Assembly: GCA_964453895.1 (NCBI GenBank)
Contig: CAYVRZ010000013.1
Coordinates: 3,975-67,974 of the forward strand
Reading direction: 5' to 3'
Length of the DNA: 64,000 bases
Source of the DNA: an uncultured Pseudobdellovibrionaceae bacterium
GTDB taxonomy: Bacteria > Bdellovibrionota > Bdellovibrionia > Bdellovibrionales > UBA1609
A program made the translations under genes and the position numbers. The notes beneath the pieces were generated by a model. That model was not told the DNA's origin and searched no databases. It worked only from the letters and a program-made list of their open reading frames with translations. Below are positions 2,473 to 16,310 of this stretch, one piece after another (the first letter of the stretch is position 1; each line of letters begins with the position of its first letter).

Positions 2473-2481
2473 GCTAGCGAA

Positions 2482-2796: not shown

Positions 2797-2815
2797 AGGA
2801 AATAATATAGCACGA

Positions 2816-2836
2816 GTGTGTAGCGTTTGTACACAC
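2816..2836 (-). promoter_or_regulatory. Candidate TA operator: 7-bp inverted repeat upstream of the antitoxin gene
   Basis: GTGTGTA (2816-2822) and TACACAC (2830-2836) are exact reverse complements, 20-40 nt upstream of the ATG at 2796. On the minus strand a TATATT -10-like hexamer sits 7 nt before that ATG. Confidence 0.3.
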
Positions 2837-2869
2837 ACAAAATAGGCTATAGTTTCAGGTGCTTATCTA

Positions 2870-4432
2870 CTATTCCCGCGTCCAGATTTCCCAGCCGCAT
2901 TTTTCGGTGGCGAGGGTACGCGTCCAGCGGCGGCCGCTGGGGTCGGTGGTTTCGGTTTTGCCCTCAGCAAATGTCAGATAAAACGCTTTGGATTCGGGCC
3001 AGTTGGGCACGTCGACTTTGGTGCCGTGGCGTGGTTCATCGGCTTGCGTGAAGCCCGCGGCGTAATTGCGGCTTAGCGCGAAGGCGGTCGCCTCGATCTC
3101 GTTTAACCGCGCCCAATTGTTGGCCCAGTTGGAGCTGGCTTTTTTGCCGGCCTGGTGGCGATCAAAGGCGATGTAAGGATCAAGCGCGACCACGCGGCCT
3201 TGTTCGACATATGAGCGAACGGCTTGCGAAATTTGCGCGGCCTCACTGCGGCAGCCGAGCGTGGGTGTAAGGCCGGCTTCGATGCTGGCCGGTACAAAAC
3301 CGATGGTTAAAAAAACTAGGGCCGCAAAATAAATCACCACGCGCGAGAAAGCTCGAGCTGGCAAAAAGCGCGTGAGCATTCCGCGCCCGTAGAGCGCGGC
3401 CCACGCTAGATTAATCGCCACGATCGGGATTAGATAATACGACATTTGATATTCGGTGTTCTGGCGAAAAATAATAATCAGTGGGAGTGCGGCGATGGCG
3501 AGCATCCGAAAGCGCCCGACTCGCGCGCTGACCAGCGGCGATACCAGGGCCAGGAGGAAAATCGCCAACAGCGGAAATAGCAACTGCGAGGTCAAGTGGT
3601 TGACCCAAGTCTCAAACGACTGTGCCGTCGGCGCGAGGCCGAACTTACTTTGATCGAGCAAAAAGCGAATCGAGCGGGGGAAATTAAAGCTTTGCGGAAA
3701 GCCGAGCAGCAAATAGCTGGGCAACATCCACAAATAAAACTCAAAAGCCGTGCGAGCATTTTGCCGGGTGAACGGCGGCATCCACATGAGCCAAATCACC
3801 GGCAGAAAAATCACAAAGGTGAGCTTGACCATACCGGCTGCACCCCACAGCAGGGCCGCGATTTTAAACCAAACCGATTGGGGCGCGTTCAACGCCTTGC
3901 TCGAGGTCACAAAGGCCGCGAGCACCACCAGACCAAATAGCATATCGGGGTGGGCGCGATAGACAAACTCGGCCCAAGTGGAGTTGCGCAAAAACAGCGC
4001 GGTGAGTGGCAGTGTAATACCCAAACGCGCGGGCCACGACGAAGTCAGCAAAGAGGCCAGCATTAGGGCAATGCCGTAAACACATAGCAAATTTAAAACC
4101 ATTAAAACTAAATGGGTCGCTCGCTCGCCGTTCTCGTACGGTGAAGCTTTATCAGCAAAGGTGCGACCGGTGAAAAAACTAAAGGTGTGCGCGACTCGAT
4201 AGAAAAAAGCGCCGTAGCCCGATTCGCCATTGTCTTTGTACCAGCGGGTTTTATAGGCGGTGCCCACAACGTGGGCGGCATCGGCATCGCGCGACGACAA
4301 TATAGAGCGCGGGTCGATATGAGAGCTAAACGCGGAGACAAAGCCGGAGAATTGAAAAATCAGCAGCAGGCCTAAAAAGCCGGTCAGAATCTTTTGACCA
4401 TTCTCGCGAAAAAAAACCTTAAGGTCTTGCAA
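2870..4432 (-). CDS. Polytopic membrane protein, possible GT-C-type (ArnT/PMT-like) glycosyltransferase
   Basis: 520-aa ORF with many hydrophobic segments followed by a ~130-aa soluble C-terminal domain. It is last in the operon that contains a polyprenyl-phosphate GT2. No diagnostic motif was recognised. Confidence 0.4.
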   Translation of the reverse strand: MQDLKVFFRENGQKILTGFLGLLLIFQFSGFVSAFSSHIDPRSILSSRDADAAHVVGTAYKTRWYKDNGESGYGAFFYRVAHTFSFFTGRTFADKASPYENGERATHLVLMVLNLLCVYGIALMLASLLTSSWPARLGITLPLTALFLRNSTWAEFVYRAHPDMLFGLVVLAAFVTSSKALNAPQSVWFKIAALLWGAAGMVKLTFVIFLPVIWLMWMPPFTRQNARTAFEFYLWMLPSYLLLGFPQSFNFPRSIRFLLDQSKFGLAPTAQSFETWVNHLTSQLLFPLLAIFLLALVSPLVSARVGRFRMLAIAALPLIIIFRQNTEYQMSYYLIPIVAINLAWAALYGRGMLTRFLPARAFSRVVIYFAALVFLTIGFVPASIEAGLTPTLGCRSEAAQISQAVRSYVEQGRVVALDPYIAFDRHQAGKKASSNWANNWARLNEIEATAFALSRNYAAGFTQADEPRHGTKVDVPNWPESKAFYLTFAEGKTETTDPSGRRWTRTLATEKCGWEIWTRE

Positions 4433-5024
4433 CCGTAGATTCCCACTTGGTGGCTTTGGTTTTTAGCGCCGGATGGCTGACGAGTAAATGCCACACCACT
4501 GCGCAAAGGCCTTCGGTGTGGGGCGTGATATGGTCAGCAAACATTGGGGGAATTACGGCGCAGGCCGTGGCCGTCTCGCGGGTGAAGCCGCCATCTTTGC
4601 CAACAATGCCAAAGATCGGCGCTTTGCGCTCGCGCGCCAGTTCAAGTGCCCGCACCAGATTCACCGAAATATTTTTGCCTTGATTGCCGCCGCCGACGCT
4701 AAAGACCAAAACTGCATCGCGCTCACTAAGGCGCGAGACTTTTAGCCATTCGATAAATGAGGTGTCCCACCCTTCGTCGTTAACTCGGGCGGTGAGCTCA
4801 CTCACGTTGTCTGTGGGCGTGTAGGCTTCAAAACCACAGATTTTACGAAAGTCATTCACTGCGTGACTGGCGTGGCCTGCAGATCCGCCCACACCTAAAA
4901 TAAATAAGCGCCCGCCGTTGTCGCGCACGCGACCGAGGCCCACCGCCATGTTCTCGATCTCTGATATAGGTAGAGATTTAATCAGCTCGACACTCTCGTT
5001 AAGAAATTTTTCGGTGAATGACAT
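4419..5024 (-). CDS. gmhA: SIS-domain sugar-phosphate isomerase, likely sedoheptulose-7-phosphate isomerase
   Basis: Contains the SIS-domain phosphosugar-binding motif RLFILGVGGSAGHASHAVNDF. Its neighbours are a GmhB-like phosphatase, a transaldolase and a nucleotidyltransferase. Confidence 0.65.
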   Translation of the reverse strand: MSFTEKFLNESVELIKSLPISEIENMAVGLGRVRDNGGRLFILGVGGSAGHASHAVNDFRKICGFEAYTPTDNVSELTARVNDEGWDTSFIEWLKVSRLSERDAVLVFSVGGGNQGKNISVNLVRALELARERKAPIFGIVGKDGGFTRETATACAVIPPMFADHITPHTEGLCAVVWHLLVSHPALKTKATKWESTVARP

Positions 5025-5027
5025 ACT

Positions 5028-5594
5028 CTATTTGCCTTTCTGTTGAACCAGCCACTGGGCGAAATCCATTAAACTTGCAAAAAATTGCGTGGGTTTTAAA
5101 TCGCGCTCCTCAAGCATGGCCAAGTGGTCGGACCGCTTGGGGCCGATATATGCCGTATTGAGTTTAAGCGCCGATCCGGCTTCGATATCGGTGATGCCGT
5201 CGCCGACCATCCAGGTGTCTTTTAAATTTGCGGGAGAAATATCGCCGAGCGCTTGTTCGAGAAGTCCCGTCGCGGGTTTGCGGCATAAGCATTTGTCTTC
5301 GCTCTTATGAAAGCAAATGTGCGACGACGAAACACTGCCGCCGTCGGCCCGCACCAACTCTAAAACTTTGGCGTGCACGGCCTCTAAGTTGGCCATGGTG
5401 GTGGTGCCTTTGGCCGCGGCCGGTTGATTGGTGGCAATACTGACTCGGTGGCCGGCTTGATTGAGCATGGCAATCGCTTCGCCCGCGCCGGGCACCAGTT
5501 TGACTTGCGAAGGATGTAAAGGCGAATTGACCGTGCCCTGTTCGGGGTCGACCACGAGGCGATTGATCACTCCGTCACGGTCTAGAATAATCAA
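5028..5594 (-). CDS. gmhB: HAD-IIIA phosphatase, D-glycero-D-manno-heptose 1,7-bisphosphate phosphatase-like
   Basis: Starts MIILDRDGVIN (the DxDG HAD motif I), then SIATNQ and GDGITD motifs. The size (188 aa) and context fit GmhB. Confidence 0.7.
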   Translation of the reverse strand: MIILDRDGVINRLVVDPEQGTVNSPLHPSQVKLVPGAGEAIAMLNQAGHRVSIATNQPAAAKGTTTMANLEAVHAKVLELVRADGGSVSSSHICFHKSEDKCLCRKPATGLLEQALGDISPANLKDTWMVGDGITDIEAGSALKLNTAYIGPKRSDHLAMLEERDLKPTQFFASLMDFAQWLVQQKGK

Positions 5595-6310
5595 AGCGTA
5601 AATCCTGATTTCACAGCGTCGTCGTAAAACATTTTAACGGTTTCGAGCGAATACTGCTCGGCGTCTTTGCCCATCAGCGGCAGTTTGCTTAAGAGCGAGG
5701 CCGGTGCGGTGATAATATGCGTGCCAGTTTGATCGGCCTGGTAAATATTTAAAACTTCGCGCGGCGAGGCCCAAAGAATTTTCGCGCCCGTAGCCCCGCG
5801 ATAAAGCTCAACCGCATCGCGCATCACCGGGATCGGATCCACGCCGGTGTCGGCCAAGCGGCCAGCAAAAATCGACACGATCACATTGTGTTTGGGCGAG
5901 ACAATTTCGCGAAGACCGCGGATTTGCGCTTGCGAGAGAATGGCGGTGACGTTGACCATAATGCCTTGGTCGAGCAATCGCTTAATCAAAGGCAAGCTCG
6001 ATTCACCGCGCGTGTTGGTGATCGGGATTTTAACATTGGCGTTGGGCCCCATGGCGACGATTTTCTCGGCTTGTTTTTCCATTTCAGAAAATTCGTCGGA
6101 GAAAACTTCAAAAGAAACAGGCAGATCTTTAATGTGTTTTAAAACCTCGCTCGCGAATTTGGCATAATCGCGAATGCCGGCTTTGGCCATCAGAGTTGGG
6201 TTGGTGGTGAAGCCTTTGACCCAGCCTTGTTCATAGCACTGGAGCATTTCTTTGAGGTCGGCGCCGTCGGCAAAGAGGGCCACTTTCAACTTGGAGGTAT
6301 ACTGTTTCAT
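5591..6310 (-). CDS. Transaldolase-family protein (fructose-6-P aldolase/transaldolase type)
   Basis: Contains GFTTNPTLM near the N-terminus and NVKIP, the Schiff-base lysine context. 239 aa. Its stop and start overlap the neighbouring genes. Confidence 0.8.
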   Translation of the reverse strand: MKQYTSKLKVALFADGADLKEMLQCYEQGWVKGFTTNPTLMAKAGIRDYAKFASEVLKHIKDLPVSFEVFSDEFSEMEKQAEKIVAMGPNANVKIPITNTRGESSLPLIKRLLDQGIMVNVTAILSQAQIRGLREIVSPKHNVIVSIFAGRLADTGVDPIPVMRDAVELYRGATGAKILWASPREVLNIYQADQTGTHIITAPASLLSKLPLMGKDAEQYSLETVKMFYDDAVKSGFTL

Positions 6311-7027
6311 TTATTTCTCCTTAAGGTGCTTGCTAGCATACTCGGTAAACTCATGCAAACCCTGTGGCGAGCCGATTTCATAGAAGCGCTCGAACACCTC
6401 AAGGCCGGCGAGTTGACCATTTTGACTTAAATTTTCATAGAGTCGGGCGAGATCGCCTTTTTGCCCGCGTTTGAAATTTATGTTGATCACATCTCGGCGC
6501 ATAATGCTGAGGCCATAGTCGATGTAGTCCATCGGCTCAACCCGGTGGGTTTTGCTATAAAACACCACTTTGCCATCGCGAAAGTTGGCGTTGCTTTTGT
6601 CGTAGCGGCCGTTGTTTTTAAAAACGGTCATCATGGCGGGAAGATCTTGATTTTTAAATTTGGCATCGACTTCGCCCACGTTGAGCGGAAGGTAAGAGTC
6701 GCCATATAAGAGCGCAAACGTCTCACTCATCGCATTTGAATCAAGTACGTGTCGGAGGGCCCCGCCGGTGCCGAGCAGATCGCCGCGCTCATAGACAAAA
6801 TTGACCGTTAAATTTTTAACGGGATGAGCTTTGATATACTCTTCGATTTTCTCACCCAAGTGGCCGAGCGAAAACGTGACATGAGTTACGCCGGTGCGGG
6901 CCAGCCACTCCAACTGATAGGTGACAAAGGCTTTGCCATGCACCGGAATCAGCGCTTTAGGCAAATCTTGCGAAATTTCTTTCATGCGGGTGCCGAGCCC
7001 ACCGGCGAGAATCACACATTGTAGCAT
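6311..7027 (-). CDS. Sugar-phosphate nucleotidyltransferase (heptose-1-P guanylyl/nucleotidyl-transferase-like)
   Basis: N-terminal ILAGGLGTRMKEISQDLPKALIPV, the nucleotidyltransferase G-x-G-T-R motif. 238 aa, comparable to HddC-type enzymes. Confidence 0.75.
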   Translation of the reverse strand: MLQCVILAGGLGTRMKEISQDLPKALIPVHGKAFVTYQLEWLARTGVTHVTFSLGHLGEKIEEYIKAHPVKNLTVNFVYERGDLLGTGGALRHVLDSNAMSETFALLYGDSYLPLNVGEVDAKFKNQDLPAMMTVFKNNGRYDKSNANFRDGKVVFYSKTHRVEPMDYIDYGLSIMRRDVININFKRGQKGDLARLYENLSQNGQLAGLEVFERFYEIGSPQGLHEFTEYASKHLKEK

Positions 7028-7956
7028 CAGGAGAATCCGACTTTCTTGTCGAGGATATATTTAGGTCGCTGTTTCACTTCGTCGTAAATTCGCCCCACGT
7101 ACTCGCCCAAAATTCCCACACTCATCAGCTGCACGCCGCCGAGAAATAGAACTAAAATCACAATGGTGGGATTGCCCATGGGGAACGGCTGGCCCTTGAG
7201 TTTGAGAATAAAATAAATAATCGCCATCACAAAGGAGCAAAAGGCGACGATAAAGCCGAACGTGGTCGATAGCCGCAGTAAGAAATTTGAAAAACACACC
7301 ACGCCGTTCATGCCGATCACGAGTGAACCTAGGAACCGGTTGTAGTTGCCTTGACCGGCGAAGCGCGCGGGGCGCTCAAAAACCACGGCGGTTTGCTTAA
7401 AGCCGACTAAAGCCACAAGTCCGCGCAAGAAACCATGACTCTCTTTAAGGGCGACCACATGGTCGACCACTCGGCGCGACATCAATCGAAAGTCGCCCGT
7501 GTTGCGGGGAATATTTACTTCGGCCACGCGGTTGATCAGTTTGTAGCCTAAGTAGGAAACTAATTTTTTTATAATCGTTTCGCCTTTGCGATTGGCCCGT
7601 TGGGCGTAAACGACGTCGTAGCCTTCTTTAAACTTCGCCAGCATTTCGAGCACCAACTCAGGCGGATCTTGCAAATCGACATCCATCACCACGACGGCGT
7701 CGCCTTGAGCGGACTCCATGCCGGCGATGGTGGCCATGGGTTGGCCCACGCGTTTGGAGAATTTAAGATATTTGACTCTTGGATCGGCGGCGTTGGCTTT
7801 TTGTAAGACCATTTCTGTCTCATCGGGCGATGGGTCCATAGCGAAAATCAGCTCGAACTCCGTAGTGACGGGCTCGAGCAGCGGGACCATTCGGCGCAAA
7901 TACTCTTCGATATTGCGCGCCTCTTTGTAGACGGGAATCACGACAGATAAAAACAT
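7027..7956 (-). CDS. Family 2 glycosyltransferase, polyprenyl-phosphate sugar synthase type (GtrB/ArnC/DPM1-like)
   Basis: VVIPVYKEARNI start, a DxD region (VVVMDVDLQD) and two C-terminal transmembrane helices ending GILGEYVGRIY, the hallmark architecture of this subfamily. Confidence 0.85.
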   Translation of the reverse strand: MFLSVVIPVYKEARNIEEYLRRMVPLLEPVTTEFELIFAMDPSPDETEMVLQKANAADPRVKYLKFSKRVGQPMATIAGMESAQGDAVVVMDVDLQDPPELVLEMLAKFKEGYDVVYAQRANRKGETIIKKLVSYLGYKLINRVAEVNIPRNTGDFRLMSRRVVDHVVALKESHGFLRGLVALVGFKQTAVVFERPARFAGQGNYNRFLGSLVIGMNGVVCFSNFLLRLSTTFGFIVAFCSFVMAIIYFILKLKGQPFPMGNPTIVILVLFLGGVQLMSVGILGEYVGRIYDEVKQRPKYILDKKVGFS

Positions 7957-8067
7957 GTGGGTGGACCATAAATTAAACCGGCGCCGCTGTCATGATCCCT
8001 CTGATAACGCAGGGCAAAATTGACATGATAGGTGCGGGTCCTTACGATGCCCCGATTTGGAGTTTAA

Positions 8068-9018
8068 ATGCAGTATTTAGTTACAGGTGGCGCGGGTTTT
8101 ATTGGCAGTCATTTGGTCGATGCGTTGCTTGCAAAAGGCCATTCGGTCCGCGCGATCGACAATTTGTCGACGGGGCTTGAGCCCAATCTCAAACTGGCGC
8201 TTAAAAATCCCAAATTTGAGTTTATTAAAAAAGATCTTTATAGCGAAGGTGAGGCCTGCATCCCGCACTTTAAGGGTGTGGATGTGGTGATTCATATGGC
8301 GGCCAACGCGGACGTGCGCTTTGGCACGGATCATCCGCGCCGCGATCTCGAGCAAAACACCATTGTGACCTGGCAAATTTTAGAGGCCATGCGGATGAAC
8401 GGTGTAAAACAAATCGCCTTTGCCTCGACCGGCTCAATTTACGGTGAGCCCGACGTTTTTCCCACTCCAGAGACGGCGCCGTTCCCCACGCAAACGTCGT
8501 TGTATGGCGCTTCGAAATTGGCGGCCGAGGGTATGATCTCGGCCTATTGTTATGGCTTTGATATGCGCTCGTGCATTTATCGGTTTGTTTCGTGTTTGGG
8601 GCCGCGCTACTCGCACGGACATGTGATTGATTTTGTGCGCCAGTTGAAAAAGCATCCCGGGCATCTTGACGTTCTGGGCGATGGCAATCAGCGAAAATCC
8701 TATATGCACGTGAGCGATTGCGTCGACGGCGTGCTGCTGGGTCTTGAGCGGGCTCGTGAAAAAGTGAATGTGTTTAACTTAGGCGTGGATGGCTCGTGCA
8801 CGGTGCGCGATTCGATTGGCTGGATTTGCGAAACTTTAGGTGTAAAGCCCGAGTTGCGTTTTACCGGTGGCACGCGCGGTTGGATTGGCGATTCGCCGCA
8901 CATTCATCTGGATGTAAAGAAAATTTCTGGGCTCGGGCACACGCCACGCCGGGGGATTTCGGAAAGTGTCGTCGATACGGTGAAATATCTTGAAGCCAAC
9001 GCGTGGATGCTCGAATGA
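8068..9018 (+). CDS. NAD-dependent nucleotide-sugar epimerase/dehydratase (extended SDR)
   Basis: Starts MQYLVTGGAGFIGSHLV (Rossmann GxxGxxG) and has YGASK (the YxxxK catalytic motif). 316 aa. Confidence 0.85.
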   Translation: MQYLVTGGAGFIGSHLVDALLAKGHSVRAIDNLSTGLEPNLKLALKNPKFEFIKKDLYSEGEACIPHFKGVDVVIHMAANADVRFGTDHPRRDLEQNTIVTWQILEAMRMNGVKQIAFASTGSIYGEPDVFPTPETAPFPTQTSLYGASKLAAEGMISAYCYGFDMRSCIYRFVSCLGPRYSHGHVIDFVRQLKKHPGHLDVLGDGNQRKSYMHVSDCVDGVLLGLERAREKVNVFNLGVDGSCTVRDSIGWICETLGVKPELRFTGGTRGWIGDSPHIHLDVKKISGLGHTPRRGISESVVDTVKYLEANAWMLE

Positions 9019-10010
9019 AGGTCGGCATTGTTGGCTGCGGCTTAATTGGCAAAAAACGCGCGCGCGCCTTGCAGAGTGATGATCAGCTGTTGGCGATTTG
9101 CGATAGCCAGGTTCAGTTTGCTGAAAGTTTAAATCGTGACTGTGGCGTTGCCGCTCAGGTTTATACCGAGTGGAAAGATCTGTTGGCGCACCCGGGCCTT
9201 GAGGCCGTTGTGATCGCGACTCCGCACAATATGCTGCCGATTATTACCGCAGCCGCCATTGAGAAGGGCTTGGCCGTTTTGGTTGAAAAACCCGCCGCCC
9301 GCAATCCGGGTGAGGTGCGCGAAGTGATAAGTGTGGCGGAGCGGAAAAAGGCCATTGTTCGAGTGGGATTTAATCACCGCTATCATCCGGCGTTTCGAAA
9401 AATCCGAGAACTGCAGTCGGTTGAGAAGTTTGGCCCACTGATGTTTATTCGCGGGCGCTATGGCCATGGCGGCCGCTTGGGGATGGAGAAAGAGTGGCGG
9501 GGCCGGCCTGAAATTTCGGGCGGTGGCGAGTTGATCGATCAGGGCGTGCATATGATCGACCTTTCGCGTTTGTGGTTGGGCCAGGTGAGCGAAGTGAACG
9601 GTTGGTCGCACAATTACTTTTGGCAGATGCCGGTGGAAGACAATGGCTTTTTGCTGTTGAAGAACAAAAACCAACAGGCCGCGTTTATTCAGGTGAGCTG
9701 CACGGAGTGGAAGAATCTGTTTAGTTTCGAAATTTATTTTCGCGATGTGAAGATAGACGTGAGTGGTCTGGGCGGCAGCTACGGCACGGAGACGTTGCGC
9801 TATTTTAAAATGCTGCCGCAAATGGGGCCGCCCGAGACCCAGGTGTTTGAGTTTGCGGGTCCCGATGACTCATGGAATTTTGAGTGGGCGGAATTCAAAA
9901 AAGATGTGGAATTGCGACGCCAGCCCGACGCCAATTTGGGCGATGCTTTGGCGGCGCTTGAAGTTGTGTATGAGACCTATCGGCAATCGGGTCAGGAGAT
10001 CAAATGTTAA
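9015..10010 (+). CDS. Gfo/Idh/MocA-family oxidoreductase
   Basis: Starts MKVGIVGCGLIGKKRA (Rossmann) and has an EKP motif (VLVEKPAA). The ATG at 9015 forms an ATGA overlap with the upstream stop, so I prefer it to the track start at 9003. Confidence 0.85.
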   Translation: MKVGIVGCGLIGKKRARALQSDDQLLAICDSQVQFAESLNRDCGVAAQVYTEWKDLLAHPGLEAVVIATPHNMLPIITAAAIEKGLAVLVEKPAARNPGEVREVISVAERKKAIVRVGFNHRYHPAFRKIRELQSVEKFGPLMFIRGRYGHGGRLGMEKEWRGRPEISGGGELIDQGVHMIDLSRLWLGQVSEVNGWSHNYFWQMPVEDNGFLLLKNKNQQAAFIQVSCTEWKNLFSFEIYFRDVKIDVSGLGGSYGTETLRYFKMLPQMGPPETQVFEFAGPDDSWNFEWAEFKKDVELRRQPDANLGDALAALEVVYETYRQSGQEIKC

Positions 10011-10984
10011 TCGTAAAGGCGCCTTTAAGAATTTCAATCGGCGGTGGCGGCACCGACTTGCCGTCGTACTATCAGAATCACGGCGCCTCGTTTATCAGCG
10101 CTGCGATCAATAAATATATCTACATCTCGTTACATAAGATTTTTATTCCCGATTACATTATTAAATATTCAGAAATGGAGCGGGTGCTGAACATCGACGA
10201 CATCAAACATCCGTTGGTGCGCGAGTGCTTGAAGGAAGTGAATGTCGGCCCGTCGCTTGAGATTTCAAGCTTTGCGGATATCCCGGCCGGCACTGGGCTT
10301 GGCTCCTCGGGCACGTTTACCGTGGCTTTGTTAAAGGCGCTTTATACCTACGCCGGGATTCGCCACGATGCCATGGGCTTGGCCGAGAAGGCGTGCGAAA
10401 TTGAAATCGACCGCTTAGGGTCGCCGATCGGCAAGCAAGATCAGTATATTTCTGCAGTGGGCGGTTTAACCCGCTTTACGATTGCCGGCGATGGCCGTGT
10501 AACGGCCGATCCGCTGCGAATGACGGAGCACGATCAAATTGATCTGGAAGAGCACTTGCTGCTGTTCTTTACCGGCTACTCGCGCTCGGCCTCGGACATT
10601 TTAAAAGAGCAAAACGATGCGACGAAAAAAGTCGACCAAGGGATGATCGACAATCTGCACTTTACCAAAGAGCTGGGAAATGAAATCGGCAAAGCTTTGG
10701 AAGCGGGCAAAATTGAAGAGTTTGGCCGCTTGCTGAATACGCATTGGGAACATAAGCGCAAACGCTCGAAGTCGATGAGCAATGAGAAAATCAATCAGTG
10801 GTACGACCTGGCCATGGAGAATGGGGCACTGGGCGGCAAGTTAATTGGAGCCGGTGGCGGCGGATTTTTAATGTTCTTGGCCGATGATAAGCGGCGCTTG
10901 CGCAAAACGATGCGCGAGGCGGGATTGGCCGACGTGCCGTTTAAGTTTGATCGCTTGGGTGCGCAGGTGGTTTTGCGTGACTAA
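10004..10984 (+). CDS. GHMP-family sugar kinase (D-glycero-D-manno-heptose 7-phosphate kinase-like)
   Basis: Contains PLRISIGGGGTDLPSYY near the N-terminus and the GHMP ATP motif PAGTGLGSSG. 326 aa, matching HddA-type kinases. Confidence 0.8.
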   Translation: MLIVKAPLRISIGGGGTDLPSYYQNHGASFISAAINKYIYISLHKIFIPDYIIKYSEMERVLNIDDIKHPLVRECLKEVNVGPSLEISSFADIPAGTGLGSSGTFTVALLKALYTYAGIRHDAMGLAEKACEIEIDRLGSPIGKQDQYISAVGGLTRFTIAGDGRVTADPLRMTEHDQIDLEEHLLLFFTGYSRSASDILKEQNDATKKVDQGMIDNLHFTKELGNEIGKALEAGKIEEFGRLLNTHWEHKRKRSKSMSNEKINQWYDLAMENGALGGKLIGAGGGGFLMFLADDKRRLRKTMREAGLADVPFKFDRLGAQVVLRD

Positions 10985-12182
10985 CTTTCAAGTCGCGGTG
11001 ATTGGCGATTGGCATTTGGCCTTTTGTACGGCCGTGAGTTTTAGCAAATCTGGAGTGGTGACGTTGCTGAAGCAGGCTCAAGGTCCGGCTAGCGTGTCGG
11101 CGGGGATCCCGCCGTGCCCGGTGAAAGAACCGTCGTTTGATGATTTTGTAGCCGAGGGTCGCCGTCGTGAATCGCTGTTTTCGACCGGCGCCTGGCAAGG
11201 GTGGGCGGCGCCGATTTGGTGGCTGGCCGTGGATACGCCAGTCGATGATGAAGATCGCCCCGATACGCGGGTGTTGCTCGACACTTTGGCTGAGGGATTT
11301 AAGTTGGGTGTGAAGCCTGAAATTTTAGCCGTGAGCAGCCAGGTGCCGCTTGGTTTTTGTAAGCGCGTGCAAGATCAATTTGGCGTGCCCGTTGTTTATG
11401 TGCCGGAGAATTTGCGGCTCGGGCAAGGGATTGAGACTTTTTTGCGAGCGGATCGCACGGTGATCGGCGCGGATGTGAGTGAAGCCGGAGAGCGGGTCAA
11501 GGGACTGATGAAGGGCTTTACAACTCAATTCTTGCACACCAACTTGGCCAGTGCAGAAATGGTTAAGCACGCGACCAATATTTTTTTAGCGACCAGCATC
11601 TCTTACGCCAACGAAATCGCCCGCGTCGGGCAAAAGTTTGGCGTGGATCACAATTTTGTAACCTCGGCCTTGAAGGCCGATAAACGCATTGGTCCTGCGG
11701 CGTACGTTAAGCCCGGACTGGGTTTTGCCGGCGGAACTTTGCCGCGCGATTTGCGGGTGCTCGAGACTTTGGGGAGCGAGCTCGGTGTGCCGGTGCCTTT
11801 GGTGAAAGCGGTTTTGCAAATCAACGACAGCGTTGACGATGTGATTGTTGAGCGGATTATGGGCATGGGCTTAGCGAATAAAAAAGTTCTGCTCGCGGGC
11901 TATAGTTATAAGGCCGATGTCGATACGGTTCGCCGGTCGCCGGCGGAGCGGTTGGCGAAGTTGTTGCGGGCCAAGGGTTTTACGGTTTTTGGTTTTGATC
12001 CGATGATGAACGGCAAGCCGCTTGAGACTTTAACGGATGTGGTTCAACATTGCGCGGATCTGAGTGAGGTGCCGAAGGATTGCGCGTTGGCTGTGATTGT
12101 AACTCCTCGCGCGAGTTTTAAAGATCTCAACTGGGGTCATTTGAAGACCTTCGATCTGGGCACGCAGTTGTGGGAGGTTTAG
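10977..12182 (+). CDS. Nucleotide-sugar dehydrogenase (UDP-glucose/GDP-mannose dehydrogenase family)
   Basis: Body matches the family (AEMVKHATNIFLATSISYANE, PGLGFAGGTLPRD, and a C-terminal domain with YKADVDTVRRSP). I place the start at GTG 10977 (VTNFQVAVIGDWHLA...) because the track start at 10884 overlaps the kinase by 100 nt. Confidence 0.7.
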   Translation: MTNFQVAVIGDWHLAFCTAVSFSKSGVVTLLKQAQGPASVSAGIPPCPVKEPSFDDFVAEGRRRESLFSTGAWQGWAAPIWWLAVDTPVDDEDRPDTRVLLDTLAEGFKLGVKPEILAVSSQVPLGFCKRVQDQFGVPVVYVPENLRLGQGIETFLRADRTVIGADVSEAGERVKGLMKGFTTQFLHTNLASAEMVKHATNIFLATSISYANEIARVGQKFGVDHNFVTSALKADKRIGPAAYVKPGLGFAGGTLPRDLRVLETLGSELGVPVPLVKAVLQINDSVDDVIVERIMGMGLANKKVLLAGYSYKADVDTVRRSPAERLAKLLRAKGFTVFGFDPMMNGKPLETLTDVVQHCADLSEVPKDCALAVIVTPRASFKDLNWGHLKTFDLGTQLWEV

Positions 12183-13022
12183 ATGTTGCTTAAAGATAAA
12201 GTTGTCGCCATCACCGGCGGCGGCCGCGGAATCGGACTCGCCATTGCCGAAACTCTGGCCGAACTCGGGGCGCGGGTTGCGGTGAGTGCGCGCACGCAGA
12301 GCGATTTGGACGCGGCCTTAAAATCTTTAAACGCCAAAGGTCCGGGCCCGCATTTGGCTTTCGTGTGTGATGTGCGCGAGACGGCGGCGGTTGAGAAATT
12401 TGCTGGCGCGGTTCGCGCGCAGCTGGGCCCGGTGTACGGGCTGGTGGCGGCGGCCGGCGTGTATGGTGAGATCAGTCCGTTTATCGATAGTTCGCTCGAA
12501 AAATGGGAAGAATCTTTAGACATTAATATTATGGGCGTGGTGCGCACGGTGCACATTTTTGCCCGTGAGATGAAGCCAACCGGCGGCCGCATGATTTTGT
12601 TCTCAGGCGGTGGCCAGGCGGCCATGCCCAACTTCGCACCGTACGTGACCGCCAAAGGCGGATTGTGGCGATTTACTGAGACGGTGGCTAAAGAATTGGC
12701 TGAGCATAAAATTTATCTGAATGCCCTTGCGCCTGGAGCGGTAAACACCAAACTTCTGGATGATTTATTGGCGGCGGGTCCAGAAAAAGTTGGCCGAGAA
12801 ATATATGAAAAGAGCCTTAAGCAGCGCGACTCGGGCGGCGAATCGCCGGTGAAGGCGGCCAAGTTGGTGCAATATTTTTTATCTGAGAAGTCCGATGGTA
12901 TTTTTGGCAAAACACTAAGCGCGGTTTGGGATGACTATGAAAATCTTAAAAGCGAAGTGAGCCGCTCGGATATTTATACCTATAAGCGCGTGGTGCGCGC
13001 CGACGGACACACGAAGCCCTAG
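12183..13022 (+). CDS. Short-chain dehydrogenase/reductase (SDR)
   Basis: Contains VVAITGGGRGIGLAIA (TGxxxGxG) and YVTAK (YxxxK). 279 aa. Confidence 0.85.
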   Translation: MLLKDKVVAITGGGRGIGLAIAETLAELGARVAVSARTQSDLDAALKSLNAKGPGPHLAFVCDVRETAAVEKFAGAVRAQLGPVYGLVAAAGVYGEISPFIDSSLEKWEESLDINIMGVVRTVHIFAREMKPTGGRMILFSGGGQAAMPNFAPYVTAKGGLWRFTETVAKELAEHKIYLNALAPGAVNTKLLDDLLAAGPEKVGREIYEKSLKQRDSGGESPVKAAKLVQYFLSEKSDGIFGKTLSAVWDDYENLKSEVSRSDIYTYKRVVRADGHTKP

Positions 13023-13744
13023 TTTCTGCGAAGGTGCAGCAGCACCGAGGTGCCAATGGGCTCGGGCAAAGCTTTCTGCAACTGGCAGGCGGCGCGGAAC
13101 AACGATTGCTTCCACGGCTTGGCCGTGACCGCCCCGACCGGATAGGGCTTTTGCATCCACTTTGAAAACATCAACGTGACCGGAATAAAAAACGAGCCGT
13201 AGTAGCGCGAGTTGAGGATGGTGAAATCTTTCTCGAACAATTCGATCATCCGGCTTTTTGTGTAGCGGCGGTAGTGGCCGAGCTGCACGTCGTGATAACC
13301 AAACAGCCAATTGTAGGCCGGGACGCTGATCACGGCCTCGCCGCCGCTCTTGACCAGCTGAGAAATATTTGTGACGGCGTCGGATTCGTCTTCGATGTGC
13401 TCAAGCACGTCGTGCATCACCAGTAAATCTACGGGCGCATATTTTTTGGTGAAGTCTTCGAGACCGATATTTTCAACTTGGATTTTGCCGCTCGCTGGGG
13501 CTTTGGCTAAGGCCGATTGAAAGGCGTTGGTCTCGGGCTCGCAGGCCAAGACTTTGGCGCCGGTGGCGGCGAGGCGCAGATTGTATTCGCCACTTCCGCA
13601 GCCGACATTGGCCACGGTTTTCTGGCGACCCGAGGCGAGCGCCTTTGCGAGCCATTGGCTGGTGATATCGTATTTGGCATTGGCGTACTCGTCGCGGCTG
13701 CGAAATTGGTGGTCTTGGCTCTTATATTCGAGATTTTCAGACAT
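13019..13744 (-). CDS. Class I SAM-dependent methyltransferase
   Basis: Contains VANVGCGSGEYNL (motif I) and a DLLVMHDVLEHIED motif. I prefer the start at ATG 13744 (MSENLEYK) over the extended track ORF. Confidence 0.8.
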   Translation of the reverse strand: MSENLEYKSQDHQFRSRDEYANAKYDITSQWLAKALASGRQKTVANVGCGSGEYNLRLAATGAKVLACEPETNAFQSALAKAPASGKIQVENIGLEDFTKKYAPVDLLVMHDVLEHIEDESDAVTNISQLVKSGGEAVISVPAYNWLFGYHDVQLGHYRRYTKSRMIELFEKDFTILNSRYYGSFFIPVTLMFSKWMQKPYPVGAVTAKPWKQSLFRAACQLQKALPEPIGTSVLLHLRRN

Positions 13745-14502: not shown

Positions 14503-15666
14503 ATGGGACGTTCGACGTTTTTATCTTTTTCTCCCCCGATGGTTGGCGATGAAGAACTAGATTCGGTGGCGAGCGTTCTGAGAGCCAGTGAGTGGCTGTC
14601 TTCGGGCCCCAAAACCAAAGAGTTTGAAGAGAAATTTTGTGGAGTGGTGGGCGCCCATTCGGCCTTGGCGCTAAATTCGTGCACGGCGGGGTTGCACTTA
14701 GGTCTGGTGGCCCATGGAGTAAAGCCGGGGGATGAAGTCATCACCACGCCCATGACTTTTTGCGCGACGGCGAATGTGGTTGAGCATTGCGGCGGCACCA
14801 CGGTGTTGGCGGATGTGGAGCCCGATACTCTTTTGATTGACTGCAAAGAGGTTGAGAAAAAAGTTTCGCAGAAGACGAAGGTGATAATGCCGGTGCACTA
14901 CGCTGGGCACCCGGTGGATATGGAAAAAATCAACTCGATCGCGCGCGCTTCGAAAGTCGCGGTGATTGAAGACGCGGCTCACTGTATGCCGTCTAAAATC
15001 GGCAGTCGCTGGATCGGCAGCGGCGACAATTTGTGTGCGTTTAGTTTTTATGCCACTAAAAATATGACCACCGGTGAGGGCGGAATGCTCACTGGCCCGG
15101 CCGACTTGATTGATAAGTGTCGAATGATGGCGTTGCATGGCATGAGCAAGGGTGCCTATGACCGCTTTAAAAAAGGCGGCAATTGGCGTTACGATGTGCC
15201 GGCGCCGGGATTTAAATATAATTTGACGGATATCGCCTCGGCCCTTGGGCTGATTCAGCTCTCGCGGATTGATGAGCTCTATCAGCTGCGGCTGAAGGTT
15301 GTGGAATTTTACGACAAGGCTTTTAAGAATTCTCCGAATCTAGAAACCCTGCGGGTGAAACCGGGCTACCAGACCTCGTACCATTTGTATCCGATCTTCT
15401 TGCAGCTCGATAAACTGAAAATTGATCGCGATGAGTTTATTGTTCAGCTCACCGAGCGAAATATCGGCAGCGGTGTGCACTACCAGCCGGTGCATATGCA
15501 CTCATACTACGCCAAAAAATACGGCTGGAAGCCGGAGTCGTTTCCCAATGCGGCGCGGGCGTTTGAGCGCATGCTGAGCTTGCCTCTCAGTTCTCGGCAT
15601 ACGGTTGAAGACGCCGCCGACGTGGTTCAGGCCGTTGAAGATATTTTTAAAAAATTTAAGCGATGA
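14503..15666 (+). CDS. DegT/DnrJ/EryC1/StrS-family sugar aminotransferase (PLP-dependent)
   Basis: Family-typical sequence including FSFYATKNMTTGEGG, which carries the PLP lysine in the ATKN context. 387 aa. Confidence 0.9.
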   Translation: MGRSTFLSFSPPMVGDEELDSVASVLRASEWLSSGPKTKEFEEKFCGVVGAHSALALNSCTAGLHLGLVAHGVKPGDEVITTPMTFCATANVVEHCGGTTVLADVEPDTLLIDCKEVEKKVSQKTKVIMPVHYAGHPVDMEKINSIARASKVAVIEDAAHCMPSKIGSRWIGSGDNLCAFSFYATKNMTTGEGGMLTGPADLIDKCRMMALHGMSKGAYDRFKKGGNWRYDVPAPGFKYNLTDIASALGLIQLSRIDELYQLRLKVVEFYDKAFKNSPNLETLRVKPGYQTSYHLYPIFLQLDKLKIDRDEFIVQLTERNIGSGVHYQPVHMHSYYAKKYGWKPESFPNAARAFERMLSLPLSSRHTVEDAADVVQAVEDIFKKFKR

Positions 15667-16310
15667 TACTAAAGCGCCTTTTTGATTTTTGGGTCAGCTT
15701 TTTTGGACTGGTCTTGCTCAGTCCGTTTTTGCTCTTATGCGCGCTGCTTGTGAAGGCCTTTGACCGCGGGCCGGTATTTTTTGTGCAGGAGCGAGTGGGC
15801 TACAACGGCGAGTCGTTTCGGATGTTTAAGTTTCGCACCATGCGGGTGAACAACTCTGGCTCCGCCATCACCATCGGGAGCGATCAGAGAATCACTTCGA
15901 TCGGGCGAGTTTTGCGCCGCTTTAAAATCGATGAACTGCCCCAGCTGTGGAACGTGCTGCGCGGTGAAATGAGCTTTGTCGGACCACGGCCTGAGGTGCG
16001 CAAATATGTCGAGATGTACAATAGCAAACAACTTGAGGTCTTATTGCTGAAGCCTGGCATCACCGACCTCGCGTCGTTTGCGTTTTTTGACGAGAGTGAT
16101 TTGCTGGCCAGTGCGCCGAACCCAGAGGCGTTCTATATTCAAGAAGTGATGCCTGAGAAAATCCGCATTAACTTAGAGTACGCCGACCGCGCTAATTTTT
16201 TTGTCGATTTGTATTTGATCTTAGCCACTGTGCTGCGTTCGGTGGGGATTAAATTTAACTTGTTCCGCCGCTTGGATGTGCGGCCCCCGCTGTTGAGGAT
16301 TCAGGCGTGA
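15663..16310 (+). CDS. Small monotopic phosphoglycosyl transferase (bacterial sugar transferase, PglC/WbaP C-terminal type)
   Basis: N-terminal re-entrant helix, then FKFRTM, DELPQLWNVLRGEMSFVGPRP, the signature of the family. 215 aa. Confidence 0.9.
   Translation: MILKRLFDFWVSFFGLVLLSPFLLLCALLVKAFDRGPVFFVQERVGYNGESFRMFKFRTMRVNNSGSAITIGSDQRITSIGRVLRRFKIDELPQLWNVLRGEMSFVGPRPEVRKYVEMYNSKQLEVLLLKPGITDLASFAFFDESDLLASAPNPEAFYIQEVMPEKIRINLEYADRANFFVDLYLILATVLRSVGIKFNLFRRLDVRPPLLRIQA

What the first reader, a model, noticed from the sequence alone, without database searches (positions are those of the whole stretch)
4419..10984. Complete nucleotide-activated heptose pathway with its own transaldolase, split across a divergent promoter
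The divergent operons around 7957-8067 together encode five functions:
- a transaldolase-family enzyme (5591-6310), a potential source of sedoheptulose-7-P
- a SIS isomerase (GmhA-like)
- a GHMP kinase (HddA-like, 10004-10984)
- a HAD-IIIA phosphatase (GmhB-like)
- a nucleotidyltransferase (HddC-like)

In established pathways this five-function set makes GDP-D-glycero-alpha-D-manno-heptose, as in S-layer glycan and Campylobacter capsule systems. The bifunctional HldE route, which makes ADP-heptose for the LPS core, is different. The surrounding epimerase/dehydratase, Gfo/Idh/MocA oxidoreductase, SDR and three methyltransferases (1106-1978, 13019-13744, 13796-14461) suggest a modified, probably O-methylated, heptose in a surface glycan. 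The nucleotide specificity and final sugar cannot be read from the sequence.
Basis: partly seen in the sequence, partly recalled or inferred. Interest (0 to 1): 0.55.

Follow-up and report, generated by a model that had tools for sequence, protein, structure and literature searches.

The report
Transaldolase-primed higher-sugar nucleotide cassette
The genes are real, but they are one copy of a widespread, undescribed ten-gene cassette whose enzyme set matches the lincomycin eight-carbon-sugar pathway better than the classical heptose pathway, so it may put an octose-type sugar on bacterial surfaces.

Summary
Two tightly packed divergent operons (2870-7956 minus strand, 8068-13022 plus strand) encode a SIS isomerase, HAD-IIIA phosphatase, transaldolase, nucleotidyltransferase and GHMP kinase.

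- None of the four "heptose" enzymes reaches the NCBIfam equivalog cut-offs for GmhA, HddA, GmhB or HddC.
- The established GDP-heptose route has no transaldolase. S7P is normally made by transketolase.
- The only characterised pathway with all five functions is the lincomycin GDP-octose route (LmbR/N/P/K/O). Its tailoring enzymes LmbM, LmbL and LmbZ belong to the same families as the adjacent epimerase, UDP-glucose-dehydrogenase-like protein and Gfo/Idh/MocA protein.

The set is a conserved cassette, usually ordered GT2-epimerase-UGDlike-SDR-Gfo-kinase-NTPtransferase-SIS-HAD-transaldolase. It occurs in soil and freshwater metagenomes, Rhizobium jaguaris and Lawsonia intracellularis. The transaldolase is present in 42 of 46 evaluable loci. 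The UGD-like protein has Thr in place of the catalytic Cys in all 29 copies examined.

A polyprenyl-phosphate GT2 and a GT-C-fold membrane protein suggest periplasmic delivery of the sugar.

I favour an NDP-octose derivative (about 0.5) over a heptose (about 0.33). I could not obtain Lmb sequences, so orthology is untested.

The parts
2870..4432 (-). 520-aa multi-pass membrane protein with a GT-C-fold glycosyltransferase (ArnT/PMT_2-like). It is the presumed periplasmic transferase that uses the polyprenyl-phosphate-linked sugar.
   Evidence: There is no Pfam hit for the window protein itself. About 9 hydrophobic segments are followed by a C-terminal soluble domain. Only 6 homologues were found, one of which hits PF13231 PMT_2 at E=3.8e-7. 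The AF2 model has pLDDT 72 and pTM 0.74. Its top 15 PDB fold matches are all GT-C enzymes: STT3, ALG12, ArnT (TM 0.50), AftA, ALG6, PimE and Emb.
4419..5024 (-). SIS-domain ketose/aldose phosphate isomerase. It is a distinct, highly conserved subfamily only remotely like GmhA, and is the LmbN-type step.
   Evidence: GmhA TIGR00441 scores 40 bits against a cut-off of 209. PDB GmhA structures match at E=1.6e-6 to 1.5e-3. The protein is 55-71% identical across cassettes from different phyla. There are 391 representative clusters at E<1e-30.
5028..5594 (-). HAD-IIIA sugar-bisphosphate phosphatase. This is the GmhB/LmbK-type step.
   Evidence: PRK08942 scores 118 bits against a cut-off of 178. TIGR01662 HAD-IIIA scores 80 bits against a cut-off of 44.6. 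It is only about 30% identical to the HADs of most other cassettes.
5591..6310 (-). Short transaldolase of the TIGR02134 type. It is translationally coupled to the phosphatase and the nucleotidyltransferase. Its proposed role is to make the ketose phosphate that enters the pathway.
   Evidence: TIGR02134 scores 317 bits against a cut-off of 282. In the alignment to T. maritima transaldolase 1vpx, the Schiff-base Lys ('vKIP'), the Glu ('fEVf') and the Phe ('sFvGR') are all kept. It is present in 42 of 46 evaluable cassette loci.
6311..7027 (-). Sugar-1-phosphate nucleotidyltransferase. This is the HddC/LmbO-type step. Nucleotide specificity is unknown.
   Evidence: Pfam NTP_transferase and NTP_transf_3 match. 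The best NCBIfam hit is HddC at 82 bits against a cut-off of 300, with MurU next at 75 bits.
7027..7956 (-). GT2 polyprenyl-phosphate glycosyltransferase (ArnC/GtrB/PgfS-like) with two C-terminal transmembrane helices.
   Evidence: Glycos_transf_2 E=2e-27. PgfS scores 251 bits and ArnC 157 bits, both below their cut-offs. Hydrophobic segments lie at about 226-252 and 260-283. Orthologues at 50-66% identity head the operon in L017, L039, L064, L076, L077, L083 and L089.
7957..8067 (.). Divergent intergenic region with one sigma-70-like hexamer pair on each strand.
   Evidence: One search found TTGACA-17-TACGAT on the plus strand at 8020-8048. It found ATGACA-17-TATGGT on the minus strand at 7993-7965. 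These are consensus matches only.
8068..9018 (+). Extended-SDR NDP-sugar epimerase/dehydratase (LmbM-type family).
   Evidence: Pfam Epimerase E=1e-47. It is 49-63% identical across cassettes.
9003..10010 (+). Gfo/Idh/MocA oxidoreductase (LmbZ-type family).
   Evidence: Pfam GFO_IDH_MocA plus the C-terminal domain match. It is 47-59% identical across cassettes and almost always lies immediately upstream of the kinase.
10004..10984 (+). GHMP anomeric sugar-phosphate kinase (HddA/LmbP-type).
   Evidence: HddA NF049969 scores 170 bits against a cut-off of 600. The PDB heptokinases 3k85, 4usk and 4n3o match at E=1e-38 to 1e-47. More than 8000 homologues were found, 56-92% identical within the cassette family.
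10977..12182 (+). UDP-glucose/GDP-mannose-dehydrogenase-family protein that lacks the catalytic cysteine (LmbL-type family). It is not expected to make a uronic acid.
   Evidence: All three UDPG_MGDP_dh domains are present. The window reads 'GFAGGTLPRD' where UDP-glucose dehydrogenase has 'GFGGSCFPKD'. Thr replaces Cys in all 29 cassette copies. The N-terminal GxGxxG motif is replaced by 'GDWHLA' or 'GLWHLG'.
12183..13022 (+). Classical short-chain dehydrogenase. It is a conserved cassette member and the presumed ketoreductase.
   Evidence: adh_short E=2.5e-44. It follows the UGD-like gene in nearly all loci.
13019..13744 (-). Class I SAM methyltransferase, a lineage-specific accessory gene.
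   Evidence: Methyltransf_11, Methyltransf_12 and Methyltransf_25 match. It is also present in L003.
14503..17512 (+). DegT aminotransferase, small Bac_transf phosphoglycosyl transferase and Wzy_C ligase/polymerase-like protein. Together they indicate a surface-glycan locus.
   Evidence: DegT E=1e-109, Bac_transf E=7e-57 and Wzy_C E=8e-20. The best NCBIfam hits for the DegT protein are ArnB and PseC, both below their cut-offs.

Best explanation
The region is one copy of a conserved, previously undescribed cassette that builds a nucleotide-activated higher-carbon sugar and hands it to a lipid carrier for attachment outside the cytoplasm.

Proposed steps (all inferred; none shown biochemically):
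1. The operon-encoded transaldolase transfers a C3 unit from F6P or S7P onto an aldose phosphate. The acceptor is most likely ribose-5-P, which would give octulose-8-P as LmbR does.
2. The SIS protein isomerises this to the aldose 8-phosphate.
3. The GHMP kinase phosphorylates C1.
4. The HAD-IIIA phosphatase removes the terminal phosphate.
5. The nucleotidyltransferase makes the NDP-octose.
6. The epimerase, the Cys-less UGD-like protein and the Gfo/Idh/MocA protein act as LmbM, LmbL and LmbZ do (epimerisation and 6,8-dehydration). The conserved SDR then reduces the keto group. The result would be an 8-deoxy-octose-type sugar, possibly O-methylated in this genome.
7. The GT2 loads the sugar onto polyprenyl phosphate, and the GT-C protein transfers it to a surface glycan on the periplasmic side.
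For: Gene content and packing are shown directly.

Cassette conservation:
- The usual order is GT2-EPI-UGDlike-SDR-GFO-KIN-NTP-SIS-HAD-TAL. It is seen in dozens of metagenome loci, on Rhizobium jaguaris pRCCGE525c and on Lawsonia intracellularis plasmid 3.
- The transaldolase is present in 42 of 46 evaluable loci.

Distance from the canonical heptose enzymes:
- All four core enzymes miss the heptose equivalog cut-offs by wide margins.
- The SIS protein is only remotely GmhA-like (E about 1e-6), yet it is 55-71% conserved within the cassette. That points to a distinct, constrained specificity.

Parallels with the lincomycin pathway:
- The only characterised pathway combining transaldolase, isomerase, kinase, phosphatase and nucleotidyltransferase is the lincomycin C8 route. 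Its tailoring enzymes LmbM (epimerase), LmbL (dehydrogenase family) and LmbZ (oxidoreductase) belong to the same three families found here (PMC4351081 Table 2; PMC12945683; PMC5854111).
- The lmb genes run K-L-M-N-Z-P-O-S-R, as shown by the sequential accessions ABX00607-ABX00615. They share the Z-P-O run with the cassette's GFO-KIN-NTP.
- The closest non-lincosamide homologues reported for CcbK, CcbZ, CcbO, CcbN and CcbP come from Acidobacteria and Sorangium at 37-49% identity, under generic names. I suspect, but did not show, that these soil lineages carry the cassette.

Other support:
- The UGD-like protein cannot do the canonical four-electron oxidation, because Cys is replaced by Thr in 29 of 29 copies.
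- Delivery module: the GT2 has C-terminal transmembrane helices and the adjacent membrane protein has a GT-C fold.
Against: - No Lmb or Ccb sequence could be obtained, so orthology is untested.
- CcbR is 222 aa and its nearest reported relative is a Cellulomonas transaldolase. The cassette enzyme is a 239-aa TIGR02134-type protein. The two transaldolases are therefore probably independent recruitments, and acceptor specificity cannot be transferred from one to the other.
- TIGR02134 is annotated as an ordinary transaldolase, and the window protein passes its cut-off.
- Four long loci lack the transaldolase (L005, L057, L073, L078). Some transaldolase-containing loci lack the UGD-like or Gfo genes (L026, L033). 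Chain extension and 6,8-dehydration are therefore not strictly coupled.
- The best characterised hits of every core enzyme are heptose enzymes.
- I know of no aldo-octose reported from a bacterial surface glycan (own knowledge; literature searches found none).
Confidence: 0.5

Rival explanations
1. The cassette makes an NDP-heptose from sedoheptulose-7-P through divergent GmhA, HddA, GmhB and HddC paralogues. The transaldolase only boosts or buffers the S7P pool. The UGD-like, Gfo, epimerase and SDR enzymes modify the heptose side chain, for example at C6 or C7.
For: The best characterised matches of the four core enzymes are heptose enzymes. JGI automatic names for family members are 'D-sedoheptulose 7-phosphate isomerase' and 'heptose-7-phosphate kinase'. 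The transaldolase passes the TIGR02134 'transaldolase' cut-off. Four loci manage without a linked transaldolase. Heptoses are well known in surface glycans (PMC10680097, listed).
Against: All four enzymes are far below the equivalog cut-offs. By textbook knowledge, S7P is made by transketolase, so a dedicated transaldolase adds little. The held literature describes no heptose cluster with its own transaldolase. The transaldolase is retained in 91% of loci across phyla. A Cys-less UGD-like protein paired with a Gfo protein has no known role on a heptose. On an octose, the same family pair performs the 6,8-dehydration.
Confidence: 0.33
2. The transaldolase uses another acceptor, such as arabinose-5-P or a hexose-6-P. 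The cassette then makes a different octose epimer or a nonose. In another version the product is not a surface-glycan sugar at all, but for example a soluble metabolite or a protein modification.
For: Transaldolases accept various aldose phosphates (PMC5854111). Nothing in the sequence fixes chain length. The GT-C acceptor is unknown. The cassette also occurs in Solirubrobacterales (Actinomycetota; names), which by general knowledge are expected to lack LPS.
Against: There is no precedent for a kinase, phosphatase and nucleotidyltransferase route to a C9 aldose. In the window the cassette sits beside a Bac_transf initiating transferase, a Wzy_C protein, a GT-C protein and methyltransferases. 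That is a typical surface-glycan context.
Confidence: 0.12
3. The co-localisation is fortuitous. The transaldolase is a housekeeping pentose-phosphate enzyme that happens to sit in the operon.
For: TIGR02134 is regarded as the housekeeping transaldolase of Staphylococcus and Coxiella. This comes from my recollection of the model's description.
Against: It is linked in 42 of 46 loci from many phyla and usually sits at a fixed position after the HAD gene. In the window it overlaps the HAD gene by 4 nt and abuts the nucleotidyltransferase gene.
Confidence: 0.05

Closest known systems
Lincomycin/celesticetin GDP-octose and GDP-lincosamide sub-pathway (LmbR, N, P, K, O, then LmbM, L, Z, S) of Streptomyces lincolnensis and S. 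caelestis
   Same: It uses the same nine enzyme families in one cluster: transaldolase, SIS isomerase, GHMP kinase, HAD phosphatase, nucleotidyltransferase, SDR epimerase, UDPG-dehydrogenase-family protein, Gfo/Idh/MocA protein and, in this window, a DegT aminotransferase. It is the same kind of route, from a transaldolase-made ketose phosphate to an NDP-sugar. It shares the gene run Z-P-O, equivalent to GFO-KIN-NTP here. Protein lengths are similar: CcbN 202, CcbP 323, CcbO 232 and CcbK 185 aa, against 201, 326, 238 and 188 aa in the window.
   Different: Sequence orthology was not tested. The transaldolase is probably from a different subfamily (TIGR02134-type, 239 aa, against CcbR at 222 aa). 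The cassette carries an extra conserved classical SDR, and the aminotransferase is not part of the conserved core. There are no carrier-protein fusions, no thiol-conjugation genes and no amino-acid condensation genes. The context is a surface-glycan locus with a GT2 and a GT-C, not an antibiotic cluster. The cassette is found across many phyla rather than in a few Streptomyces.
GDP-D-glycero-alpha-D-manno-heptose pathway (GmhA, HddA, GmhB, HddC) of Aneurinibacillus S-layer glycan, Campylobacter and Burkholderia capsules
   Same: It follows the same four-step logic, and its enzymes are the closest characterised relatives of each core protein. The PDB heptokinases 3k85, 4usk and 4n3o match the kinase, and GmhA structures match the SIS protein.
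   Different: None of the four proteins reaches the curated equivalog score. The heptose pathway has no transaldolase. Its known tailoring uses SDR dehydratases, epimerases and reductases, not a Cys-less UGD-like protein with a Gfo partner.
ArnC/ArnT and GtrB/GtrC-type lipid-carrier-mediated periplasmic glycosylation
   Same: It pairs a GT2 polyprenyl-phosphate glycosyltransferase carrying C-terminal transmembrane helices with a GT-C-fold membrane transferase encoded beside the sugar-nucleotide genes.
   Different: The scores are below the ArnC and PgfS cut-offs. No flippase (ArnEF or GtrA) was identified in the window. The GT-C protein has only six detectable homologues, and its acceptor is unknown.

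Membership tests
GDP-D-glycero-alpha-D-manno-heptose pathway (GmhA/HddA/GmhB/HddC) | Isomerase scores as a GmhA equivalog (TIGR00441, cut-off 209.45 bits) | tested here: not met
   It scores 40.4 bits. PDB GmhA structures match only at E=1.6e-6 or weaker.
GDP-D-glycero-alpha-D-manno-heptose pathway (GmhA/HddA/GmhB/HddC) | Kinase scores as an HddA equivalog (NF049969, cut-off 600 bits) | tested here: not met
   It scores 170.5 bits. HddA is still the best-scoring family, and heptokinase structures are the best PDB matches.
GDP-D-glycero-alpha-D-manno-heptose pathway (GmhA/HddA/GmhB/HddC) | Nucleotidyltransferase scores as an HddC equivalog (NF049965, cut-off 300 bits) | tested here: not met
   It scores 81.7 bits, and MurU scores almost the same at 75.2 bits.
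GDP-D-glycero-alpha-D-manno-heptose pathway (GmhA/HddA/GmhB/HddC) | Phosphatase scores as GmhB (alpha-type NF050049 cut-off 250; beta-type NF006506 cut-off 178) | tested here: not met
   It scores 38.3 and 118.4 bits respectively. Only the generic HAD-IIIA domain model is passed.
GDP-D-glycero-alpha-D-manno-heptose pathway (GmhA/HddA/GmhB/HddC) | Substrate is sedoheptulose-7-phosphate | not testable with these tools
   This needs enzyme assays.
Lincosamide-type NDP-octose pathway (LmbR/N/P/K/O + M/L/Z/S) | All enzyme families of the pathway are encoded together, including a pathway-dedicated transaldolase | tested here: met
   Searches show the families in the window. The transaldolase is linked in 42 of 46 loci. 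The family list for Lmb comes from PMC4351081.
Lincosamide-type NDP-octose pathway (LmbR/N/P/K/O + M/L/Z/S) | Proteins are closer in sequence to Lmb/Ccb enzymes than to heptose enzymes | not tested
   Lmb and Ccb sequences could not be retrieved. The genome scan with an lmbZ primer gave only a chance hit, and the key papers are not held. The only indirect lead is the reported nearest homologues of the Ccb proteins, from Acidobacteria and Sorangium.
Lincosamide-type NDP-octose pathway (LmbR/N/P/K/O + M/L/Z/S) | Transaldolase is of the LmbR/CcbR type and uses ribose-5-P as acceptor | tested here: inconclusive
   CcbR is 222 aa and its nearest reported relative is a Cellulomonas transaldolase. 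The window enzyme is 239 aa and of the TIGR02134 type. The subfamily is probably different. Acceptor specificity cannot be tested here.
Lincosamide-type NDP-octose pathway (LmbR/N/P/K/O + M/L/Z/S) | Embedded in a lincosamide antibiotic cluster (carrier-protein fusions, LmbC/D/E/F/T/V, resistance genes) | tested here: not met
   None of these families is present in the 17-kb locus. It works like the sugar half of the pathway at most and is not a lincosamide cluster.
UDP-glucose/GDP-mannose 6-dehydrogenase (for 10977-12182) | Catalytic cysteine nucleophile in the GGxCxxKD motif and an N-terminal GxGxxG motif | tested here: not met
   The protein reads 'GGTLPRD', with Thr at the Cys position in 29 of 29 cassette homologues. 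Its N-terminus reads 'GDWHLA' or 'GLWHLG'. All three Pfam domains of the family are present.
TIGR02134 short transaldolase | Score above the curated cut-off, with the Schiff-base lysine and transaldolase-type Glu and Phe retained | tested here: met
   It scores 317.2 bits against a cut-off of 281.95. The residues were seen in the alignment to 1vpx.
Polyprenyl-phosphate GT2 plus GT-C periplasmic glycosylation (ArnC/ArnT-like) | GT2 with C-terminal transmembrane helices related to ArnC/PgfS, and a partner with a GT-C fold | tested here: met
   Searches cover the GT2. Searches cover the GT-C protein. The model is of moderate confidence (pLDDT 72), and the GT2 is below the equivalog cut-offs.
Polyprenyl-phosphate GT2 plus GT-C periplasmic glycosylation (ArnC/ArnT-like) | Dedicated flippase (GtrA or ArnE/F-like) | not tested
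   Small ORFs in the window were not examined. A GtrA gene is present in the related locus L005.

The most novel reading that the evidence does not exclude
A transaldolase-primed NDP-octose pathway, probably giving an 8-deoxy-octose, is widespread in environmental and host-associated bacteria. Lineages include Bdellovibrionota, soil lineages that may include Acidobacteria, Solirubrobacterales, Rhizobium and Lawsonia. The sugar decorates their surface glycans through a polyprenyl-phosphate/GT-C route. The lincosamide antibiotic sugar genes would then be a specialised offshoot of this primary-glycan cassette. This would be the first aldo-octose in bacterial cell-surface glycans, and the Cys-less UGD-like plus Gfo pair would be a general 6,8-dehydratase.
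Probability: 0.4. Interest if true: 0.8.

Novelty: new variant of a known kind. Interest (0 to 1): 0.6.

Why it matters
If the cassette makes an octose, an eight-carbon aldose known only from lincosamide antibiotics would become a common building block of bacterial surfaces.

It would give an evolutionary origin for the lincomycin sugar genes. It would also define a function for a large Cys-less branch of the UDP-glucose-dehydrogenase family.

Thousands of genes are currently auto-named 'sedoheptulose-7-phosphate isomerase', 'heptose-7-phosphate kinase' or 'galactokinase'. Those names would need correcting.

Even if the product is a heptose, the conserved ten-gene cassette with its own transaldolase and an Und-P/GT-C delivery arm appears undescribed. 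It is present in a veterinary pathogen (Lawsonia intracellularis) and in a cultivable Rhizobium, where it can be tested directly.

Tried and rejected
1. Retrieving the S. lincolnensis lmb locus. I scanned genome contigs with the published lmbZ RT-PCR primer taken from the supplement of PMC7014725. The only match was a chance 22-mer in an unrelated Deltaproteobacteria MAG contig that encodes a 1058-aa protein.

2. Reading the three primary Liu-lab papers (JACS 2012, JACS 2014, PNAS 2020). None is held.

3. Looking for LmbN among the relatives of the SIS protein.
- The representative search gave 150 hits, all above 43% identity. None has a recognisable carrier-protein fusion.
- The N-terminal extensions look like miscalled starts or frameshifts.
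- Cluster look-ups returned no names.
- A homologue search seeded with a high-GC member returned Solirubrobacterales proteins, not Streptomyces.

4. Translating the lmb RT-PCR primers and matching the 6-7-aa peptides to window proteins. The method has no discriminating power. Target scores were about equal to the best off-target scores, apart from a generic SDR motif.

5. Literature searches for a transaldolase inside heptose or O-antigen clusters, or for octoses in surface glycans. Nothing relevant was found.

6. Naming the source organism. Exact look-ups show only that the window's proteins sit on a 100-kb NCBI contig without names. The nearest named relatives are Bdellovibrionales, Bdellovibrionota and Oligoflexia MAGs.

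7. Rfam scan of the window. It gave no hits.

8. Fortuitous linkage of the transaldolase. I rejected this because of the 42 of 46 linkage.

Full report
**Observation**

On the minus strand, in order of transcription:
- a GT2 (7027-7956);
- a nucleotidyltransferase (6311-7027);
- a transaldolase (5591-6310);
- a HAD-IIIA phosphatase (5028-5594);
- a SIS protein (4419-5024);
- a 520-aa membrane protein (2870-4432).

On the plus strand:
- an SDR epimerase (8068-9018);
- a Gfo/Idh/MocA oxidoreductase (9003-10010);
- a GHMP kinase (10004-10984);
- a UDP-glucose/GDP-mannose-dehydrogenase-family protein (10977-12182);
- a classical SDR (12183-13022).

Stops and starts overlap or abut throughout, so these are two tightly packed operons. 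The 111-bp gap between them has one sigma-70-like hexamer pair on each strand. This is weak evidence. Base composition is flat across the window. The rest of the window is ordinary Gram-negative chromosome: ScpAB, RF3, RND efflux pumps and H+-PPase. The closest named relatives are Bdellovibrionales and Oligoflexia MAGs.

**How the enzymes compare with the heptose pathway**

The closest characterised relatives of the kinase, isomerase, phosphatase and nucleotidyltransferase are heptose enzymes. None comes near the curated equivalog thresholds:

| Enzyme | Score (bits) | Cut-off (bits) |
|---|---|---|
| GmhA | 40 | 209 |
| HddA | 170 | 600 |
| HddC | 82 | 300 |
| GmhB, beta type | 118 | 178 |
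| GmhB, alpha type | 38 | 250 |

PDB searches agree. The heptokinases 3k85, 4usk and 4n3o match at E=1e-38 to 1e-47. GmhA structures match only at about 1e-6. These proteins are paralogous families, not the known enzymes.

The transaldolase passes the TIGR02134 cut-off (317 against 282 bits). It keeps the Schiff-base lysine and the Glu and Phe that distinguish transaldolases from fructose-6-P aldolases.

**It is a conserved cassette**

I anchored on the kinase and collected loci from several sources:
- the assemblies collection;
- a metagenome scan that gave 80 loci with kinases 56-61% identical;
- the plasmid collection.

I mapped all window proteins onto these loci with tblastn. A single co-directional operon recurs: (GT2)-epimerase-UGDlike-SDR-Gfo-kinase-NTPtransferase-SIS-HAD-transaldolase. 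It occurs on the Rhizobium jaguaris chromid pRCCGE525c and on Lawsonia intracellularis plasmid 3. RefSeq names the Lawsonia genes generically, as 'SIS domain-containing protein', 'galactokinase' and 'transaldolase'.

The divergent split in the window is a rearrangement. The window shares it with its 90%-identical relative L003.

The transaldolase is present in 42 of 46 loci where its presence can be judged. The four exceptions are L005, L057, L073 and L078. L057 has an HpcH/HpaI aldolase on the opposite strand after the HAD gene.

The SIS protein is the most conserved member, at 55-71% identity across phyla. Its family is large, with 391 representative clusters at E<1e-30. It extends into Solirubrobacterales.

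**The UGD-like protein is not a uronic-acid-forming dehydrogenase**

Aligned to UDP-glucose dehydrogenases, the window reads 'GFAGGTLPRD' where they have 'GFGGSCFPKD'. Thr replaces the catalytic Cys in all 29 cassette homologues. The N-terminal GxGxxG motif is 'GDWHLA' or 'GLWHLG'. The canonical thiohemiacetal/thioester mechanism is therefore excluded for this whole subfamily.

**Comparison with what is known**

The established GDP-heptose route has four enzymes and no transaldolase. By textbook knowledge, S7P comes from transketolase, so 'S7P supply' is a weak reason for a dedicated transaldolase.

The one characterised pathway that combines all five functions is the lincomycin C8 route:
- LmbR transfers a C3 unit from F6P or S7P to ribose-5-P to give octulose-8-P (PMC5854111).
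- LmbN is the isomerase, LmbP the kinase, LmbK the phosphatase and LmbO the guanylyltransferase.
- LmbM (epimerase), LmbL (dehydrogenase family), LmbZ (oxidoreductase) and LmbS (aminotransferase) then convert GDP-octose to GDP-lincosamide (PMC4351081 Table 2; PMC12945683).

Every one of these families is in the window's locus. All but the aminotransferase belong to the conserved cassette, which adds a classical SDR instead. The window's DegT protein scores best against ArnB and PseC and sits next to the initiating transferase, so it may serve another sugar.

The lmb gene order is K-L-M-N-Z-P-O-S-R, as shown by the sequential accessions ABX00607-ABX00615. It shares the Z-P-O run with the cassette's Gfo-kinase-NTPtransferase.

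The supplement of PMC4351081 lists the nearest non-lincosamide homologues of the Ccb proteins. CcbK, CcbZ, CcbO, CcbN and CcbP match proteins from Solibacter, an uncultured acidobacterium, Acidobacterium capsulatum and Sorangium, at 37-49% identity and under generic names. These are soil lineages of the kind I suspect carry the cassette, but I did not show that. This is a lead, not a test.

CcbR, by contrast, is 222 aa and is closest to a Cellulomonas transaldolase. The two transaldolases are probably independent recruitments.

**Delivery**

The GT2 is ArnC/PgfS-like and has two C-terminal transmembrane helices. Its orthologues head the operon in many loci.

The 520-aa protein has only six detectable homologues. 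One of them hits PMT_2. Its AF2 model (pLDDT 72, pTM 0.74) matches only GT-C glycosyltransferases at the top of a PDB fold search: STT3, ALG12, ArnT, AftA, ALG6, PimE and Emb.

Together they suggest this route: NDP-sugar to polyprenyl-P-sugar, then a flip across the membrane, then GT-C transfer onto a surface glycan. The neighbouring Bac_transf, Wzy_C and methyltransferase genes fit a surface-glycan locus.

**Verdict**

My best explanation is a transaldolase-primed NDP-octose pathway with LmbL/Z/M-like tailoring (about 0.5). The main rival is a divergent NDP-heptose pathway (about 0.33).

The decisive sequence comparison with the Lmb and Ccb proteins could not be run, because I could not obtain those sequences. 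All biochemical steps are inferred.

Literature searches found no description of this cassette. I rate it a new variant of a known kind, of moderate-to-high interest because it is directly testable in cultivable hosts.

Noticed in passing
window 1975-2838 (-): A TacA-like antitoxin (PF08681, 2482-2838) sits next to a GNAT acetyltransferase (1975-2472). This is a TacAT-type toxin-antitoxin pair wedged between the FkbM methyltransferase and the GT-C gene. The 90%-identical relative L003 has an MTHFR gene at this position instead, so the pair looks like a recent insertion.
   Followed up: partly
window 5028-5594 compared with loci L008-L087: The window's HAD phosphatase is only about 27-36% identical to the HADs of most cassettes, while the neighbouring SIS protein is 55-71% identical. 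Exceptions are L003 (81%) and L022 (52%). The Oligoflexia locus L001 has no HAD in its cassette at all. The phosphatase step seems to have been replaced or to evolve freely.
   Followed up: partly
L057 14172-14993 (-): In one of the four cassettes without a transaldolase, an HpcH/HpaI-family aldolase lies just after the HAD gene on the opposite strand. It could be unrelated, or it could be an alternative carbon-carbon bond-forming enzyme.
   Followed up: no
L088 (Lawsonia intracellularis plasmid 3, NC_008014.1 about 14.5-31.9 kb) and L089 (Rhizobium jaguaris pRCCGE525c about 969.7-983.5 kb): The complete cassette is present in a pig pathogen and in a cultivable rhizobium. RefSeq annotates it only generically ('galactokinase', 'SIS domain-containing protein', 'transaldolase'). 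In Lawsonia a gene for a lysylphosphatidylglycerol-synthase-TM-domain protein is inserted after the transaldolase.
   Followed up: partly
window 30992-32056 (-): A single 354-aa ORF combines an N-terminal HepT-like RNase toxin domain with a C-terminal SLT lytic-transglycosylase domain. This is either an unusual fusion or two genes merged by the ORF caller. An upstream 167-aa ORF (30499-31002) overlaps it.
   Followed up: no
window 22205-25165: An HNH endonuclease ORF (22205-23242) and a 470-aa HD-domain protein (23753-25165) lie in the lowest-GC stretch of the window (0.47 at 22-24 kb). This may be a small mobile or defence-related island.
   Followed up: no
window 13019-13891 (-) and 13796-14461 (+): The longest ORF of the second methyltransferase (start at 13891) overlaps the third methyltransferase ORF by about 95 nt. 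The third 'methyltransferase' has only a weak Methyltransf_11 match (28 bits) and no NCBIfam hit.
   Followed up: partly
L005/L006 8604-13497: A Bacteroidota-like variant, flanked by a TonB-dependent receptor, keeps Gfo, kinase, NTP-transferase, SIS and HAD (kinase 61% identical). It has no transaldolase, UGD-like protein or SDR. It carries a GtrA-family gene and two DegT genes nearby. It may make a different sugar from a central-metabolite ketose phosphate.
   Followed up: no
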